Position numbers and translations under genes: made by a program. Below, in pieces: positions 12,426 to 16,686 of a stretch of 64,000 nucleotides of DNA. The notes under the pieces are model-generated. The model was not told the DNA's origin and did not search any database. It saw only the letters and a list, made by a program, of their open reading frames with translations. Origin of the DNA: Gemmatimonadales bacterium (GTDB lineage: Bacteria; Gemmatimonadota; Gemmatimonadetes; Gemmatimonadales; GWC2-71-9); contig DATMDQ010000016.1 in the NCBI GenBank assembly GCA_035557715.1, positions 568 to 64,567 on the forward strand, written 5' to 3'. Every line of letters begins with the position of its first letter. The first letter of the stretch is position 1.

Positions 12426-12448
12426 GCGAAAAGTCGGGAAGACGGGAA

Positions 12449-12485
12449 GGGCGGGAAAGAGGTGGGATTCTCTTCCCGCCCTTTT
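12449..12485 (+). terminator. Intrinsic terminator after the glsB-like gene (between convergent genes)
   Basis: Stem GGGCGGGAAAGAG (12449-12461) / CTCTTCCCGCCC (12470-12481, one bulge), 8-nt loop, then TTTT (12482-12485). Confidence 0.55.
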
Positions 12486-12497
12486 CGTGTCCTTCCC

Positions 12498-14240
12498 TTA
12501 CCGCCCCACGGCCTTCAGGCCCGCCCTTCCCGTCCTTCCAGCCTTTCCCGCCTTTCCCGGATGCACCTGCCGCGCCAGCTCCCCGAACATCGCAAAATCG
12601 AGACTCTGGGCCCCGTCGCTCATGGCTGCGGCCGGGTTGGGATGCACCTCCACGATCAGCCCGCAAGCGCCAGCCGCCAGCGCTCCCAGACTGAGCGGAA
12701 TGACGATCGAGCGTATCCCTGCCGCATGGCTGGGGTCGACGATCACGGGCAGGTGGGTCCGCTCGCGAACCAGGGCGACCGCGTTCAGGTCGAGGGTGTG
12801 CCGGGTAGCCCGCTCGAAGGTTCGGATGCCCCGCTCGCACAGTACGACGTTGGGATTGCCTTCGGCCAGGACGTATTCGGCTGCCCCCAGCCATTCCTCG
12901 AAGGTCGCACCCGCACCCCGTTTGAGCAGCACCGGCTTGCCGCTCCGGCTGGCCGCCCGAAGCAGGCTGAAGTTCTGCATGTTGCGGGCGCCGATCTGGA
13001 GCATGTCGGCAAAATGCGCGACCACCGGGACTTCTTCCCAGCTCAACACCTCAGTGACGATCGGTAGCCCGGTCTTGTCCCGGGCGTCGGCCAGGTACCG
13101 GAGTCCTTTGACGCCGAGCCCCTGAAAATCGTAGGGCGACGTTCGAGGCTTGTACGCGCCTCCTCGGAGCATGTCGGCTCCGGCCTGCGCCACCGCCACC
13201 GCCGTCTCGAGGATCATCTCCTCGCTTTCCACCGAGCAGGGCCCGGCGATCAAAACCGGTTCGCCCCCGCCGAATCTCAGGCCCCGAACCTGCACCACCG
13301 TCCCCTCCGGATTCCGGCGGCGGTCCACCAGGGGAACGGAAGGCTTCTCCACCCGGTGGGCCGGTGGCGGCACCGGAGCCGAGAGGCGGGAGCCTTCGGT
13401 CCAGGCCTCGTAGCTCCCCAGCACGATAAGCTTGGCGGCCAGGGCCTCGATCTCCTCCAGGGCCTCCGAGACCCGCGGGTCCTGGGCAGAGCCCTCCACG
13501 TCTACATAGAACCGGTAGGTCCAGGGAGCCGAGCGCTCAGGCCGCGACTGAAGCGCCATCAGGTTGACCCCCCTGGCTCCGAACGCCTGGAGCGTCAGGG
13601 CAAGCATGCCGGGCTTGTGGTCAACCAGGACGATGAGCGAGGTCTTGTACCGGCTCGCCCCGGGTGTCCGGAAGGAGTCGGCGACGTCGGCGCGGGTGAA
13701 GGTGAGAAAGCGGGTCTGATTGGTGGGGTCGTCCTCGATCCGCTCGGCCAGGGCCGCGAGGCCGTGGGCGTCGGCGGCCGGTCTCGCGGCGATAGCAGCC
13801 CAGGCCGGGTTCTTCTCCTGCGCCACTATTTCGGCGCTCCCCGCTGTATCCCAGGCACTGACCAGCTCGGCATCGGGAAGGTGCTCCGATAGCCAGATCC
13901 GGCACTGGCCCAGCGCCACCGGATGGGAGAGGACCCGGCGGATCCCGGAGAGCGGCGCTCCCGGCAGCGCCATGATGGTGTGGTGGACCGGATGGAGGAT
14001 CTCATGCGTCAGGTGGAGCGTGCCGTCGCCGAACGCCTCGTGGAGCAGATCGTAGGTGGTTGTGACCGACCCGATGAGGGAGTTCTCGATCGGTAGACAG
14101 CCGGCCTCGGCGCGGCCCTCGCGAACTGCCGCCACCACGTCCTTCACGTCACGGCAGGGCAGGGCTTCCAGGTCCGGCCAGCGGCGCCGGGCCGCGGCTT
14201 CACTGAAGGATCCGTGAGAACCCTGAATGGCTACACGCAT
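12498..14240 (-). CDS. Fusion protein: prephenate dehydratase (with ACT domain) + type I-beta 3-deoxy-7-phosphoheptulonate (DAHP) synthase
   Basis: Start ATG at 14240 (MRVAIQGSHGSFSE...). PDT catalytic and ACT domains (KTSLIVLVDHKPGML...YRFYVDVEG). DAHPS barrel (VLIAGPCSVESEE...GGAYKPRTSPYDFQGLG...KRG...DPSHA). The C-terminal GKAGKAGRTGRAG tail is encoded by a repeat array. Confidence 0.9.
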   Translation of the reverse strand: MRVAIQGSHGSFSEAAARRRWPDLEALPCRDVKDVVAAVREGRAEAGCLPIENSLIGSVTTTYDLLHEAFGDGTLHLTHEILHPVHHTIMALPGAPLSGIRRVLSHPVALGQCRIWLSEHLPDAELVSAWDTAGSAEIVAQEKNPAWAAIAARPAADAHGLAALAERIEDDPTNQTRFLTFTRADVADSFRTPGASRYKTSLIVLVDHKPGMLALTLQAFGARGVNLMALQSRPERSAPWTYRFYVDVEGSAQDPRVSEALEEIEALAAKLIVLGSYEAWTEGSRLSAPVPPPAHRVEKPSVPLVDRRRNPEGTVVQVRGLRFGGGEPVLIAGPCSVESEEMILETAVAVAQAGADMLRGGAYKPRTSPYDFQGLGVKGLRYLADARDKTGLPIVTEVLSWEEVPVVAHFADMLQIGARNMQNFSLLRAASRSGKPVLLKRGAGATFEEWLGAAEYVLAEGNPNVVLCERGIRTFERATRHTLDLNAVALVRERTHLPVIVDPSHAAGIRSIVIPLSLGALAAGACGLIVEVHPNPAAAMSDGAQSLDFAMFGELARQVHPGKAGKAGRTGRAGLKAVGR

Positions 14241-14260
14241 GAGGGAAACTCCGAAGTGAG

Positions 14261-14296
14261 AAAAGAAAAAAGCCCCGCCGATAGAGTCGGCGGGGC
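14261..14296 (-). terminator. Intrinsic terminator-like hairpin in the 5' leader of the PDT-DAHPS gene (candidate attenuator)
   Basis: Minus strand: GCCCCGCCGA-CUCUA-UCGGCGGGGC (perfect 10-bp stem, 14272-14296) followed by UUUUUUCUUUU (14261-14271). It ends ~20 nt before the ATG at 14240. No upstream same-strand gene is available for it to terminate. Confidence 0.6.
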
Positions 14297-14319
14297 GTCG
14301 ATCGTCCGGGCGGAAAGCG

Positions 14320-14403
14320 CTAACGCACTCTACCGGCACCGGGCGGGCATCGAGCCTCGCCGGCGTTGGTAAAGAGGAACCAGTAACTGCGCACGGACAT
14401 CAT
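14320..14403 (-). CDS. Putative leader peptide M(M)SVRSYWFLFTNAGEARCPPGAGRVR
   Basis: Minus-strand ATG(ATG) at 14403/14400, stop TAG at 14320-14322. Codons 6-10 are Tyr-Trp-Phe-Leu-Phe. It lies directly upstream of the terminator hairpin. No obvious Shine-Dalgarno sequence. Confidence 0.4.
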   Translation of the reverse strand: MMSVRSYWFLFTNAGEARCPPGAGRVR

Positions 14404-15439
14404 GGAGCGAACCTACGGCTCAGCGCGGAGGGTTGTCAAGGGCATGAGAGCTTATCTTTTGCGGATGCCCCGCCGTTGCGTACCATGTCTTCCAGCCCTC
14501 CTGCTGGGGTTGGCGCTGGCCATCCCAGGGCCCGCTCAGGCCCAGGGGCTGCCCGAGTTTGGACCGCTCAACCCTGTGGCCAGCTCGCGCAGCGGGCTCT
14601 ACTTCCACCCGTTCCGCGAACCCGGGCCGGGGCGTTGGCGCCCCGCGGTCGCATTGGATTACGCCAGCCTCATCGAGTACAACCGGCTGGACCAGGCTGA
14701 CTACGTCCTGGACTCCGAGGTTCTCCGGCTGAGCTTCGGGGTCAGTCGGGATCTAGGGCGGCGGACCTTCCTGGCCCTGAGCGCATCGGTGGGCGGTGCC
14801 TATGCCGGATTCCTGGACGGTTTTCTCGACTGGTACCACGCCAGGCTGGGCTTCAGGATGAGCGAGCGGGACGACAGGCCCCAGGACCAGTTCCTTTACT
14901 CTATCGTCCTGCCTGACGGACGAACCGTCAACCGGACCAGACCGGACCTCTTTCTGGGCGATGTTCGGGCGGGGCTTGGGATCCGGCTCAATTCGCATCT
15001 CCAGACTGTTTTCTCGATCACGCTCCCCACGTCAACCGGGCCTGAGGGGTATGGGCGCGGGGTTCCTTCGGCGGCAATCCTGAACACGCTGAAGACTCAG
15101 CTGTCTCCTCGGCTGATCTACGAGGGTAGTGTCGGTTTGGGGGTCACCCCGACGCACGGCCGCATGGCCGATCTTCAGAAGACCGTAATGCTGGCGGTCA
15201 GCTCGGGCCTGAGGCATCGCCTCTGGGGCAACCAGTCGCTCTACGGGAATCTGTTTTATCATTCTCCGTACTACCACGACACCACGCTTCCGGCTCTTGA
15301 CCGGCGGGAGCTGTCGCTGGACTTCGGCTGGACCCTGCAGACGCAGGGTGGGGGAGAGTGGCGGGTTGGGATGACGGAAGACCTCGAGCCCGGAGGGCCG
15401 GGGGTGGATCTGATCTTCAGGCTGGGAAGGACATTCTAG
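14402..15439 (+). CDS. Hypothetical secreted / outer-membrane-like protein
   Basis: Signal peptide (LPALLLGLALAIPGPAQAQ). Alternating beta-strand-like pattern and a C-terminal aromatic residue (RLGRTF). The start may be 14444 or 14465 rather than 14402. Family not recognised with confidence. Confidence 0.6.
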   Translation: MERTYGSARRVVKGMRAYLLRMPRRCVPCLPALLLGLALAIPGPAQAQGLPEFGPLNPVASSRSGLYFHPFREPGPGRWRPAVALDYASLIEYNRLDQADYVLDSEVLRLSFGVSRDLGRRTFLALSASVGGAYAGFLDGFLDWYHARLGFRMSERDDRPQDQFLYSIVLPDGRTVNRTRPDLFLGDVRAGLGIRLNSHLQTVFSITLPTSTGPEGYGRGVPSAAILNTLKTQLSPRLIYEGSVGLGVTPTHGRMADLQKTVMLAVSSGLRHRLWGNQSLYGNLFYHSPYYHDTTLPALDRRELSLDFGWTLQTQGGGEWRVGMTEDLEPGGPGVDLIFRLGRTF

Positions 15440-16035: not shown

Positions 16036-16201
16036 ATAGAGTTCCGGATATGAGGGTTGCGCTCCGTTACAGTACGAAACGTTGAGACGAAAGATTCAGG
16101 TTTCCCTGCCAATTCGGGCACCGGACTTTGTGGTATGCGAATCGCGGGCAGAACTACCAATCGTATCCTTGCCTAAGGTCTCTCAGGGAAGGAGCCAAAC
16201 G

Positions 16202-16636
16202 ATGCCTAGACAACATCCGACGGTGCAGGTGCCAAACATCGGCCCTATGGACCACGCGTGGGATTTGCTCGGCGAGTGGCAGGCTGAGTTCGAGCTGCCC
16301 GAGACTGAGTCGCCGGTGCACGGCAAGGTGACGTTCCGGTCATGGACCGATGCCGAGCTGCAGCTTGACCCCATCGAGGCGGCTATCGCGGGGATTCCGT
16401 CGAGCGTGCCGCTCGAGCGGGCCAGCGAGATCCATCTCACCGATGCGGGCGGAGGCGCGCTCCAATGGGTGCTGCACGCGCCCTCCACCAACTGGTCGCT
16501 TCAAGCGACGCTCTGGCCCGGCTCGCTCCACCTGTTCGTCCATGACGCGGACGACGACGAGGAGCAGCTCTACCGGGCCCGCGCGACCCGGGATCAGGAT
16601 TACTACCTAAGGAAGTACCCGCTCGACAACCGCTGA
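16202..16636 (+). CDS. Hypothetical protein
   Basis: ATG at 16202 is preceded by GGAAGGAGC. A strong intrinsic terminator follows the stop. No recognised family. Confidence 0.55.
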   Translation: MPRQHPTVQVPNIGPMDHAWDLLGEWQAEFELPETESPVHGKVTFRSWTDAELQLDPIEAAIAGIPSSVPLERASEIHLTDAGGGALQWVLHAPSTNWSLQATLWPGSLHLFVHDADDDEEQLYRARATRDQDYYLRKYPLDNR

Positions 16637-16650
16637 GTTTCCTGCGATCG

Positions 16651-16686
16651 ACGCCCGTCGGCATTTCGCCGACGGGCGTTTTGCTT
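16651..16686 (+). terminator. Rho-independent terminator
   Basis: Perfect 12-bp stem ACGCCCGTCGGC (16651-16662) / GCCGACGGGCGT (16668-16679), 5-nt loop, then TTTGCTT. Confidence 0.8.

What the first reader, a model, noticed from the sequence alone, without database searches (positions are those of the whole stretch)
14261..14403. Aromatic-rich leader peptide (SYWFLF) plus perfect intrinsic terminator upstream of the PDT-DAHP synthase gene: candidate ribosome-mediated attenuator
On the minus strand, the 160 nt before the ATG (14240) of the prephenate dehydratase-DAHP synthase fusion contain two elements. The first is a short ORF, ATG(ATG) TCC GTG CGC AGT TAC TGG TTC CTC TTT ACC AAC ... TAG, encoding M(M)SVRSYWFLFTNAGEARCPPGAGRVR. 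It has Tyr, Trp and two Phe codons within five consecutive positions. The second lies 24 nt later: a perfect 10-bp GC hairpin (GCCCCGCCGA/UCGGCGGGGC) followed by UUUUUUCUUUU. No upstream same-strand gene exists for this terminator to serve, because the neighbour is divergent. A leader carrying all three aromatic amino acids fits control of the first common step (DAHPS) plus the Phe branch. A segment inside the leader ORF (GCCGGCGAGGC) is 9/11 complementary to the 5' arm of the terminator and could act as an antiterminator, but that pairing is imperfect.
Basis: partly seen in the sequence, partly recalled or inferred. Interest (0 to 1): 0.7.

Follow-up and report, generated by a model that had tools for sequence, protein, structure and literature searches.

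The report
Aromatic amino-acid attenuator, leaderless leader peptide
The stretch in front of a phenylalanine/aromatic-pathway gene in an uncultured soil bacterium (Gemmatimonadales) is very probably a classic "ribosome-sensing" transcription attenuator, a well-known kind of switch that has not been described in this phylum and that here seems to start translation at the very first base of the RNA.

Summary
On the minus strand a conserved promoter (TTGACA-N18-TAGGTT) sits 6 nt before the leader AUG, so the 27-codon ORF is most likely translated without a 5' UTR or Shine-Dalgarno sequence. Across 94 non-redundant orthologous leaders the ORF behaves as translated:
- Between the AUG and the aromatic run, all five length classes differ by whole codons.
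- 4-6 Phe/Tyr/Trp codons occur within 7 codons, and TGG, TTC and TAC replace each other at the same sites.
- The stop codon keeps its position while changing identity (TAG/TAA/TGA).

An intrinsic terminator follows in every leader. It is a 79-nt hairpin (14364-14286, -44.6 kcal/mol) that contains the terminator's 5' arm and is supported by covariation. Its base lies exactly 7 nt after the last Phe codon. A ribosome stalled on the aromatic codons leaves it intact; one that moves on destroys it. The element occurs only upstream of the PDT-ACT-DAHP synthase fusion. It is a new member of a known kind, closest to E. coli pheL-pheA and C. glutamicum aroR-aroF. No experimental data exist.

The parts
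14434..14439 (-). -35 box TTGACA
   Evidence: One search gives the exact match. TTGACA (70) or TTGACG (3) is present in 73 of 75 orthologous leaders, with an 18-nt (70) or 17-nt (3) spacer.
14410..14415 (-). -10 box TAGGTT (TAnnnT)
   Evidence: a TAnnnT hexamer is present in 73 of 75 leaders. It ends 6 nt before the leader ATG in 62 of 75 (range 5-9 nt).
14401..14403 (-). Leader AUG and predicted transcription start (leaderless); no Shine-Dalgarno sequence upstream
   Evidence: The start site is inferred from promoter geometry and has not been measured.
14320..14403 (-). Leader-peptide ORF: 27 codons plus stop TAG (14322-14320), encoding MMSVRSYWFLFTNAGEARCPPGAGRVR
   Evidence: The aromatic run is always in phase with the AUG, at offsets of 24, 27, 30, 33 or 36 nt. 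The stop codon sits at the same alignment column in 70 of 74 leaders, as TAG (59), TAA (7) or TGA (4).
14371..14385 (-). Regulatory codons TAC TGG TTC CTC TTT (Y W F L F)
   Evidence: 4-6 aromatic residues in 7 codons in 71 of 74 leaders. Codon position 1 is fixed as T while position 2 varies among T, A and G, and TGG, TTC and TAC interchange at the same sites.
14364..14370 (-). 7-nt spacer between the last Phe codon and the base of the antiterminator
   Evidence: Exactly 7 nt in 73 of 74 leaders. This places the 3' edge of a stalled ribosome at the base of the helix.
14286..14364 (-). Antiterminator hairpin. The 5' strand is 14362-14325, all within leader codons 14-27. The 3' strand is 14320-14288 and includes the terminator's 5' arm.
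   Evidence: Folded alone it gives -44.6 kcal/mol, z = -4.37. Covariance-model hit at 14286-14364. 90.4% of cells paired, with 49 compensatory cells against 17.4 in shuffles. Cognate strands beat swapped strands by -2.43 kcal/mol, 0 of 5000 permutations as good.
14337..14365 (-). A:B hairpin (CGCCGGCGAGGC / GCCCGCCCGGUG). A local alternative that folds the antiterminator's 5' strand on itself, acting as an anti-antiterminator.
   Evidence: Cognate against swapped: -0.52 kcal/mol, 22 of 5000 permutations as good.
14312..14334 (-). Apical hairpin shared by both folds; it contains the leader stop codon
   Evidence: The adjacent helix P3 gives -1.18 kcal/mol cognate against swapped, 0 of 5000 permutations as good.
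14391..14401 (-). P1 5' strand (GAUGUCCGUGC, includes the start codons)
   Evidence: It pairs with 14311-14300 in the terminator fold only. Support is modest: -0.83 kcal/mol, 3 of 5000 permutations as good, and P1 is absent from the predicted folds of some clades.
14300..14311 (-). P1 3' strand (GCCCGGACGAUC). The same bases form the inner helices of the antiterminator.
   Evidence: helix H3: -0.79 kcal/mol, 0 of 5000 permutations as good. C-G to G-C compensation at alignment pair 24-105 in 10 sequences.
14272..14296 (-). Intrinsic terminator stem-loop, 10 bp with 9 G-C pairs and loop CUCUA
   Evidence: A terminator is present in all 74 leaders, 21-31 nt after the stop codon in all three phases.
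14261..14271 (-). U-tract TTTTTTCTTTT
14249..14252 (-). Shine-Dalgarno GGAG of the main gene, 8 nt before its ATG
   Evidence: GGAG is nearly invariant in alignment A1.
12498..14240 (-). Regulated gene: prephenate dehydratase - ACT - DAHP synthase (type I-beta) fusion, 580 aa, monocistronic
   Evidence: Pfam. A hairpin follows the stop codon and a convergent PDZ-domain gene lies beyond it.

Best explanation
This is a leader-peptide (ribosome-mediated) transcription attenuator. It sets expression of the PDT-ACT-DAHP synthase gene according to the supply of charged aromatic tRNAs, mainly Phe and also Tyr and Trp.

Transcription starts from a sigma-70-type promoter at or next to the A of the leader AUG, so a ribosome must load on the 5'-terminal AUG without a Shine-Dalgarno sequence (inferred). 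Two outcomes follow.

1. Aromatic aminoacyl-tRNAs are scarce. The ribosome stalls on the Tyr/Trp/Phe codons (14385-14371), and its front edge stops just short of the helix base 7 nt downstream. As RNA polymerase continues, the long antiterminator hairpin (14364-14286) zips up from the inside and captures the 5' arm of the terminator. The polymerase reads through into the gene.

2. Aromatic aminoacyl-tRNAs are plentiful. The ribosome keeps translating along the 5' strand of the antiterminator (codons 14-27) and ends at the stop codon in its apical hairpin. The antiterminator cannot form, the local A:B hairpin refolds behind the ribosome, the terminator forms, and transcription ends at about 14261-14268.

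Shown here: all the sequence elements, their conservation, the signatures of translation, the two mutually exclusive folds, and how the folds depend on ribosome position in silico.

Inferred: the transcription start, leaderless initiation, the kinetics, and the response to starvation.
For: Conserved architecture:
- Promoter, AUG, aromatic run, structured tail, terminator, Shine-Dalgarno sequence and gene recur in 74 genome-derived and 22 metagenome-derived non-redundant leaders.

Signatures of translation:
- The aromatic run lies 24, 27, 30, 33 or 36 nt from the AUG, always in phase. The untranslated spacer after the stop takes every length from 21 to 31 nt.
- The stop codon sits at one column in 70 of 74 leaders while drifting among TAG, TAA and TGA.
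- In the aromatic run codon position 1 is nearly fixed as T, position 2 varies, and TGG, TTC and TAC interchange. The N-terminal codons are unconstrained, and the tail is equally constrained at all three codon positions.

Antiterminator:
- It is the best fold of transcripts that end before the 3' arm, in four divergent leaders.
- Folded alone it gives z = -4.37.
- Cognate strands beat swapped strands by -2.43 kcal/mol (0 of 5000 permutations as good), and a reversed-strand control shows nothing.
- On the structure-aware alignment 90.4% of cells are paired, against 27-54% when partners are slid. There are 49 compensatory cells against 17.4 +/- 3.3 in shuffles.

Ribosome ruler:
- The free energy holding the terminator's 5' arm is -13 to -16 kcal/mol with the A-site on or before the aromatic run. 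It is -9.6 at the last Phe codon, -6.2 one codon later, and about -3 from there to the stop.
- The spacer is 7 nt in 73 of 74 leaders.

Refolding from the A:B state to the antiterminator is feasible: the mean direct-path barrier is 7.6 kcal/mol, the driving force is -14.9, and the inner helices already win 24 nt before the 3' arm is complete.

Specificity: every full copy found in metagenomes precedes the same fusion gene.

Biological logic: the gene encodes the Phe-branch enzyme fused to the first common step of aromatic synthesis. Precedents are pheL-pheA and aroR-aroF (PMC11802643, PMC4046766, PMC3082878).
Against: - There are no experimental data of any kind: no mapped transcription start, no mapped 3' end, no starvation response.
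- At equilibrium the terminator wins for every ribosome position once its 3' arm exists, so the model depends on kinetics I could not simulate.
- Before the 3' arm appears, the antiterminator is also favoured in RNA with no ribosome at all (-9.2 kcal/mol). The untranslated default may therefore be read-through rather than the 'super-attenuation' described (from my own knowledge) for the E. coli trp leader.
- A ribosome at the stop codon still allows the outer antiterminator helix in the naive mask model. This is excluded only by a steric assumption.
- In this window itself the refolding barrier is 10.6 kcal/mol, which is slow unless the polymerase pauses.
- No other gene in the window shows the leaderless promoter geometry, and leaderless translation is undocumented in this phylum.
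- One ortholog (L074) has lost the aromatic run and one (L044) has a frameshift.
Confidence: 0.8

Rival explanations
1. The leader is a ligand- or protein-binding RNA switch, either a riboswitch-like four-way junction or the target of an RNA-binding regulator. It would choose between the same terminator and antiterminator, and the small ORF would be incidental.
For: The terminator fold is a closed multi-helix junction (P1, a small hairpin, A:B and the apical hairpin) with z = -4.1. The tail of the ORF is conserved at the nucleotide level at all three codon positions. The antiterminator is favoured even without a ribosome, so something must act to prevent it.
Against: - An incidental ORF would not keep the codon phase of its indels, or keep a stop codon at one column while changing its identity.
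- It would not keep 4-6 interchangeable aromatic codons, or a 7-nt spacing matched to a ribosome footprint.
- No Rfam family matches.
- P1, which closes the junction, is only weakly supported and is missing from the predicted folds of some clades.
Confidence: 0.05
2. The ORF encodes a functional micropeptide, or the terminated 140-nt leader transcript is a trans-acting small RNA in its own right. The terminator would then simply end that gene.
For: It is a strong promoter plus terminator unit of about 140 nt. Weak, terminator-driven similarities to sRNA families appear in Rfam. An attenuator-derived leader RNA that acts in trans is known in Sinorhizobium (rnTrpL, PMC6614838).
Against: - The N-terminal third of the peptide is unconstrained, and the C-terminal half is constrained as RNA, not as protein.
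- The unit is always placed immediately before the same gene, and no separate promoter was noticed in the short stretch between the terminator and that gene's Shine-Dalgarno sequence.
- A stand-alone sRNA does not need an antiterminator that covaries.
- A trans role would add to attenuation, not replace it.
Confidence: 0.07
3. The hairpin is a constitutive terminator or insulator between divergent genes, and the fusion gene is transcribed from another promoter downstream of it.
For: The region lies between divergent genes, and the generic terminator scan shows no enrichment in this area.
Against: - Only 20 nt separate the U-tract from the ATG, and 8 nt separate it from the Shine-Dalgarno sequence. 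That leaves no room for a promoter.
- The only conserved promoter points into the leader.
- There is no same-strand gene upstream for the terminator to serve.
Confidence: 0.02

Closest known systems
E. coli pheL-pheA attenuator (Phe-codon leader peptide upstream of chorismate mutase-prephenate dehydratase; Rfam Phe_leader)
   Same: A short ORF rich in Phe codons, followed by alternative antiterminator and terminator hairpins, directly upstream of the prephenate dehydratase gene. It senses charged tRNA-Phe through ribosome stalling (PMC11802643, PMC3082878).
   Different: - There is no sequence or structure homology: no Rfam hit even at E = 10.
- Known pheL genes are from the gamma subdivision of Proteobacteria (PMC3082878).
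- The leader here is predicted to be leaderless, mixes Phe, Tyr and Trp codons, and is about twice as long as E. coli pheL (about 15 codons, from my own knowledge).
- It runs through the whole 5' strand of the antiterminator to a stop codon in its apical hairpin.
- The regulated enzyme is fused to DAHP synthase rather than to chorismate mutase.
Corynebacterium glutamicum aroR-aroF attenuator (Neshat et al. 2014, as summarised in PMC11802643 and PMC4046766)
   Same: A leader peptide with mixed aromatic residues (Phe-Tyr-Phe) upstream of a DAHP synthase gene. Read-through rises under Phe limitation.
   Different: It comes from a different phylum and has an unrelated sequence. The aromatic run here is longer and includes Trp. 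The target here is a PDT-DAHPS fusion. The C. glutamicum element has been tested experimentally and this one has not.
Leaderless leader peptides of Actinobacteria (Streptomyces lividans trpL, leuL and ilvL, PMC8079986; mycobacterial polycysteine short ORFs, bioRxiv 10.1101/834739)
   Same: The attenuator ORF begins at the transcription start with no 5' UTR or Shine-Dalgarno sequence. Several are followed by a hairpin and a U-run.
   Different: In those cases the leaderless start was mapped by RNA-seq. Here it is inferred from a conserved promoter with 6 nt between the -10 box and the AUG. The phylum is different (Gemmatimonadota), and no report of leaderless translation or attenuation there was found.
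E. coli trpL-trp operon attenuator (the textbook 1:2 / 2:3 / 3:4 model)
   Same: - The logic is the same: a ribosome stalled on the regulatory codons permits the antiterminator, and a ribosome that proceeds blocks the antiterminator's 5' strand.
- A local hairpin (here A:B, plus P1) plays the part of 1:2.
- The terminator is thermodynamically stronger than the antiterminator.
   Different: - The regulatory codons here lie outside the competing helices, 7 nt upstream of them, rather than within segment 1.
- The ORF overlaps the entire 5' strand of the antiterminator.
- The antiterminator is a long 30-bp composite hairpin.
- Without any ribosome the antiterminator, not the 1:2-like state, is predicted to be favoured before the 3' arm emerges.

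Membership tests
Leader-peptide (ribosome-mediated) transcription attenuators | A short ORF between the promoter and an amino-acid biosynthetic gene, enriched in codons for the pathway's product | tested here: met
   The 27-codon ORF has Y-W-F-L-F. 4-6 aromatic residues occur in 7 codons in 71 of 74 orthologs. The downstream gene is PDT-ACT-DAHPS. The background F+W+Y fraction is 5.7%, and only 3 of 127,972 five-residue windows reach 4 or more.
Leader-peptide (ribosome-mediated) transcription attenuators | The ORF is actually translated | tested here: inconclusive
   The evolutionary signatures are strong: whole-codon spacing classes, a stop kept at one position as TAG, TAA or TGA, and interchange of aromatic codons. 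There is no ribosome profiling or reporter data, and there is no Shine-Dalgarno sequence, so translation would have to be leaderless.
Leader-peptide (ribosome-mediated) transcription attenuators | An intrinsic terminator between the leader ORF and the structural gene | tested here: met
   A 10-bp GC stem plus a U-tract, present in all 74 orthologs.
Leader-peptide (ribosome-mediated) transcription attenuators | An antiterminator that is mutually exclusive with the terminator | tested here: met
   The hairpin 14364-14286 includes the terminator's 5' arm. Covariation supports it.
Leader-peptide (ribosome-mediated) transcription attenuators | A ribosome stalled on the regulatory codons permits the antiterminator, and a ribosome further on prevents it | tested here: met
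   In-silico footprint masking across the 74 genome-derived leaders gives -13 to -16 kcal/mol falling to about -3 kcal/mol, with the step exactly at the last Phe codon. The spacer is invariant at 7 nt.
Leader-peptide (ribosome-mediated) transcription attenuators | Premature termination that is relieved by starvation for the cognate amino acid | not testable with these tools
   This needs Term-seq or a reporter under Phe, Tyr or Trp limitation.
Rfam Phe_leader / Trp_leader and other curated leader families | A match to the family covariance model | tested here: not met
   cmscan of 13900-14900 at E up to 10 gave no leader family. Only sub-threshold sRNA hits driven by the terminator appeared.
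T-box riboswitch | A match to the curated Rfam T-box covariance model | tested here: not met
   No T-box hit in the permissive Rfam scan.
Leaderless mRNA | The transcription start coincides with the start codon | tested here: inconclusive
   The geometry TTGACA-N18-TAGGTT-N6-ATG is conserved in 73 of 75 leaders and unique in the window, and it predicts a start at the A of the AUG. No 5'-end data exist.

The most novel reading that the evidence does not exclude
The element is a leaderless, multi-input attenuator. A single 70S ribosome would load on the 5'-terminal AUG of the nascent RNA and read interchangeable Phe, Tyr and Trp codons, so that one switch integrates all three aromatic tRNA pools. 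The AUG region itself is part of the switch: helix P1 pairs it with the inner strand of the antiterminator. The window for translation initiation, and not only elongation speed, would then set the outcome. If so, this would be the first evidence I know of for leaderless translation and classical attenuation in Gemmatimonadota.
Probability: 0.25. Interest if true: 0.55.

Novelty: new member of a known kind. Interest (0 to 1): 0.4.

Why it matters
- **Reach of attenuation.** It extends classical leader-peptide attenuation, and probably leaderless translation, to Gemmatimonadota. This is an abundant soil phylum with almost no experimental genetics. I found no such element reported for it in the searched literature, and Rfam has no matching family.
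- **Annotation.** Gene callers miss the leader ORF. The window also contains an in-frame 613-aa reading of the fusion gene that runs through the terminator, and some database proteins are 606-614 aa instead of about 572-580, possibly for the same reason.
- **A well-defined test system.** With 96 natural variants, the covarying antiterminator and the invariant 7-nt spacing give specific mutations to try.
- **Enzyme logic.** A single ACT-containing fusion of the Phe-branch enzyme with the first common step is controlled by a leader that mixes all three aromatic codons.

Tried and rejected
- **RNAalifold on the MAFFT alignment.** It recovered only the invariant base of A:B and the terminator, with no covariation, because sequence-only alignment misplaces the 3' strand. 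I replaced it with the swap test and a covariance-model alignment.
- **Pairing of CUUUACC (end of the aromatic run) with GGUAGAG.** Rejected, because cognate pairs were worse than swapped pairs.
- **Equilibrium probability of the terminator against ribosome position.** It stayed at about 0.94-1.0 everywhere, so it could not discriminate.
- **Probability that the 5' arm is paired with anything.** Weak local pairings inflate it to about 0.5 for downstream ribosomes. I replaced it with the free energy of sequestration.
- **Rfam scan.** No family matched.
- **Search for other leaderless-type promoters in the window.** Only the leader itself matched, so there is no independent support for leaderless genes in this genome.
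- **The search for homologous proteins.** It listed only relatives at 88-95% identity, which did not widen the taxonomic range.
- **Metagenome pattern scan.** 94 of the 120 loci fetched were chance matches with no promoter, ORF or fusion gene. The 26 real ones all precede the fusion gene, so no second regulon member was found.
- **Literature searches.** Searches for attenuation or leaderless translation in Gemmatimonadota found nothing relevant.
Full report
**1. What is there**

- A 27-codon ORF (14403-14320, MMSVRSYWFLFTNAGEARCPPGAGRVR) with Tyr-Trp-Phe-Leu-Phe at 14385-14371.
- 23 nt after its stop codon, a perfect 10-bp GC-rich stem-loop (14296-14272).
- Then TTTTTTCTTTT (14271-14261), a GGAG Shine-Dalgarno sequence (14252-14249), and the ATG of the main gene at 14240.

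Pfam confirms the main gene as a fusion of prephenate dehydratase, an ACT domain and a type-I DAHP synthase. The upstream neighbour is divergent: a DUF3187 protein starting at 14465 on the plus strand. The fusion gene is monocistronic. A hairpin follows its stop codon, and a convergent PDZ-domain gene lies beyond it. No Rfam family matches the leader, even at E = 10. The weak sRNA hits are driven by the terminator.

**2. Origin and comparative material**

The fusion protein retrieved 80 orthologous loci at 78-95% identity, all from uncultured Gemmatimonadales or Gemmatimonadota genome bins. 74 non-redundant leaders were usable.

A metagenome scan for the leader's conserved core fetched 120 loci.
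- 26 are followed by the same fusion gene at 70-92% identity.
- 22 of those 26 show the full architecture with my strict criteria.
- The other 94 lack promoter, ORF and fusion gene, and are chance matches.

The element is therefore dedicated to this one gene. The most distant leaders still carry aromatic runs, for example MTRYRTFWF and MHNGNRFGFFF.

**3. Promoter and transcription start**

Immediately upstream of the leader ATG there is no Shine-Dalgarno sequence. Instead there is a conserved sigma-70-type promoter.
- TTGACA (70) or TTGACG (3), in 73 of 75 leaders.
- A spacer of 18 nt (70) or 17 nt (3).
- A TAnnnT hexamer (TAGGTT, TACGTT, TAGCTT and others).
- 6 nt before the ATG in 62 of 75 (range 5-9).

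In the window this is 14439-14434, 14415-14410 and ATG 14403. The composite pattern occurs once in the 64 kb, against 0.04 expected by chance.

Established promoter geometry puts the start about 7 nt after the -10 hexamer, which is on the A of the AUG. This is an inference, not a measurement. It means the leader peptide must be translated from a leaderless mRNA. That is documented for attenuator leader peptides in Streptomyces (PMC8079986) and for regulatory short ORFs in mycobacteria (bioRxiv 10.1101/834739). I found no report for Gemmatimonadota.

**4. Evidence that the ORF is translated**

- *Codon phase.* The aromatic run lies 24, 27, 30, 33 or 36 nt from the AUG, always in phase. The untranslated spacer between stop codon and terminator takes every length from 21 to 31 nt.
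- *Stop codon.* It occupies one alignment column in 70 of 74 leaders but is TAG in 59, TAA in 7 and TGA in 4. That is selection for a stop, not for particular bases.
- *Aromatic codons.* The 7 codons ending at the last Phe contain 4-6 aromatic residues in 71 of 74 leaders (F 39%, Y 19%, W 11%). Codon position 1 is almost fixed as T while position 2 varies among T, A and G, and TGG, TTC and TAC/TAT replace each other at the same sites. That is selection for the aromatic class.
- *Rest of the ORF.* The N-terminal codons are unconstrained at all three positions. The C-terminal 15 codons are equally constrained at all three positions (0.61, 0.61, 0.76 bits), which indicates RNA-level constraint and argues against a functional micropeptide.
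- *Background.* F+W+Y make up 5.7% of residues in the long ORFs of the window (six-frame, at least 300 aa). Only 3 of 127,972 five-residue windows in the six-frame translation reach 4 or more aromatic residues.

**5. Two mutually exclusive folds**

The minimum-energy fold of the full leader is the terminator fold. It has five elements.
- Helix P1, which pairs the start-codon region (14401-14391) with 14311-14300.
- A small hairpin around the aromatic codons.
- The A:B hairpin (14365-14337).
- An apical hairpin that holds the stop codon (14334-14312).
- The terminator.

If the 3' arm of the terminator is not yet available, the best fold is a single long hairpin, 14364-14286. Its 5' strand lies entirely within leader codons 14-27. 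Its 3' strand is the segment just upstream of the terminator plus the terminator's 5' arm. Folded alone it gives -44.6 kcal/mol, z = -4.37, and none of 200 shuffles fold as well. The same long hairpin is predicted in leaders from four divergent clades.

**6. Co-evolution of the folds**

*Alignment-free test.* I compared the duplex energy of each leader's own two strands with strands swapped between leaders.

| Helix | Cognate minus swapped (kcal/mol) | Permutations as good |
|---|---|---|
| Antiterminator, whole | -2.43 | 0/5000 |
| Control: 3' strand reversed | +0.12 | not significant |
| H2, UCGAUG x CAUCGA (antiterminator only) | -1.11 | 0/5000 |
| H3, GUCCGG x CCGGAC (antiterminator only) | -0.79 | 0/5000 |
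| P3 (shared by both folds) | -1.18 | 0/5000 |
| Terminator | -0.88 | 0/5000 |
| A:B (terminator fold only) | -0.52 | 22/5000 |
| P1 (terminator fold only) | -0.83 | 3/5000 |

The outer helix (A x 5' arm) is invariant at about -15 kcal/mol, so it carries no covariation signal. In the window it is better than all but 10 of 2000 shuffles.

*Conventional count.* I used an Infernal alignment of 85 hits (78 distinct sequences) to a model of the antiterminator.
- 90.4% of cells are paired, against 27-54% with slid partners.
- 11 pairs have changes on both sides, against 6.7 +/- 1.2 in shuffles (2/500).
- 49 cells are compensatory, against 17.4 +/- 3.3 (0/500).
- Examples are C-G to G-C in 10 sequences at pair 24-105, and U-A to A-U or G-C at pairs 12-16 with 118-123.

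That alignment was fitted to the structure, which biases it towards pairing. The swap test does not share this bias.

**7. The ribosome as a ruler**

I masked a ribosome footprint (A-site -18 to +12 nt) at every codon of the 74 genome-derived leaders. I then asked how much free energy holds the terminator's 5' arm in transcripts that end just before the 3' arm, allowing no pairing across the ribosome.

| A-site position | Free energy holding the 5' arm (kcal/mol) |
|---|---|
| Any codon up to one before the last Phe | -13 to -16 |
| Last Phe codon | -9.6 |
| One codon later | -6.2 |
| From there to the stop codon | about -3 |

The step coincides with the end of the aromatic run because the base of the antiterminator lies exactly 7 nt after the last Phe codon in 73 of 74 leaders. 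So a ribosome stalled on any aromatic codon leaves the antiterminator free, and a ribosome that proceeds occupies its 5' strand until it terminates in the apical hairpin. The stop codon is always 21 nt or more from the terminator stem, so the terminating ribosome does not block the terminator itself.

**8. Kinetics (inference)**

- With the complete terminator present it wins at equilibrium for all ribosome positions. The terminator hairpin alone averages -23.2 kcal/mol. As in classical attenuators, the decision must therefore be kinetic.
- The local A:B hairpin forms first.
- The direct-path barrier from the A:B state to the antiterminator averages 7.6 +/- 3.3 kcal/mol, with a driving force of -14.9. 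In this window it is 10.6 kcal/mol.
- In stepwise folding of the window's leader, the inner antiterminator helices already become the best fold at transcript length 108. That is 24 nt before the 3' arm is complete. This is compatible with inside-out strand displacement in which the A:B loop (UCGAU) serves as a toehold.

I could not run a true co-transcriptional simulation.

Two weaknesses remain.
- Without any ribosome the antiterminator is still favoured before the 3' arm appears (-9.2 kcal/mol, against -12.9 with a stalled ribosome). The untranslated default may therefore be read-through.
- The claim that a terminating ribosome prevents the outer helix rests on a steric assumption.

**9. Comparison with known systems**

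In function, this is the E. coli pheL-pheA design (a Phe-codon leader before prephenate dehydratase) combined with the C. glutamicum aroR-aroF design (a Phe-Tyr-Phe leader before DAHP synthase) (PMC11802643, PMC4046766, PMC3082878). It also has the leaderless initiation reported for actinobacterial attenuators (PMC8079986; bioRxiv 10.1101/834739).

It is not a homologue of any curated family. Known pheL genes are from the gamma subdivision of Proteobacteria (PMC3082878).

It differs in five ways.
- The predicted start is leaderless.
- Three kinds of aromatic codon are interchangeable.
- The ORF runs through the whole 5' strand of the antiterminator to a stop codon at its apex.
- The regulatory codons lie outside the competing helices.
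- The phylum is new.

**10. Verdict**

It is a new member of a known kind of regulatory element. The comparative and structural evidence is strong, and experimental evidence is entirely lacking. I put confidence in the attenuator model at about 0.8. Confidence in the leaderless start and in the auxiliary role of P1 is lower.

Noticed in passing
window 14371-14373 (minus strand), and the same position in all orthologs: The last Phe codon of the aromatic run is TTT in 94 of 94 leaders, although TTT is the minor Phe codon (122 TTT against 823 TTC in the 80 orthologous fusion genes). The next codon is ACC in 76 of 94. It may be a deliberately slow codon at the critical position, or an unidentified RNA constraint. 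The one pairing I proposed for it was rejected.
   Followed up: partly
window 12498-14339 (minus strand): An in-frame GTG at 14339 gives a 613-aa reading of the fusion gene that runs through the terminator and part of the leader. Some database entries for this protein are 606-614 aa instead of about 572-580, so some public annotations may have an over-extended N-terminus. I did not inspect those entries.
   Followed up: no
window 12498-14240 (minus strand): The regulated protein is a PDT-ACT-DAHP synthase (type I-beta) fusion, conserved across Gemmatimonadales. The single ACT domain sits between the two catalytic domains and could mediate feedback on both. I did not investigate this.
   Followed up: no
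L074:2834-3003: One ortholog keeps the promoter, all helices and the terminator but has lost the aromatic run (MLRLNGLACSFT..., a single Phe). It is a natural 'regulatory-codon mutant', or an assembly artefact.
   Followed up: no
L009, L010, L014 (leaders, about 2848-3003 in L009): This clade has only a 6-bp terminator stem. The antiterminator remains the minimum-energy fold even in the full-length leader, so these leaders may be leaky or set to a different threshold.
   Followed up: no
L044:2832-3003: A 1-nt insertion between the ATG and the aromatic run puts the ATG out of frame. Only an upstream GTG is in frame. This could be a sequencing error in the genome bin or a decaying leader.
   Followed up: no
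window 16650-16680 (plus strand): A strong terminator-like hairpin (13-bp stem, 10 G-C pairs) lies right after the 184-aa ORF at 16082-16636, which has no Pfam match.
   Followed up: no
window 12429-12480: A GC-rich hairpin (GGGCGGGAAGAG...CTCTTTCCCGCCC) lies between the convergent fusion gene and the PDZ-domain gene. It is probably a shared, bidirectional terminator, with a weak T-run on the minus strand.
   Followed up: partly
window 14367-14382 (minus strand): A small 4-bp hairpin (UGGU/ACCA) pairs the Trp codon with the Thr codon after the last Phe. It encloses the aromatic codons in both predicted folds. Its role is unknown.
   Followed up: no
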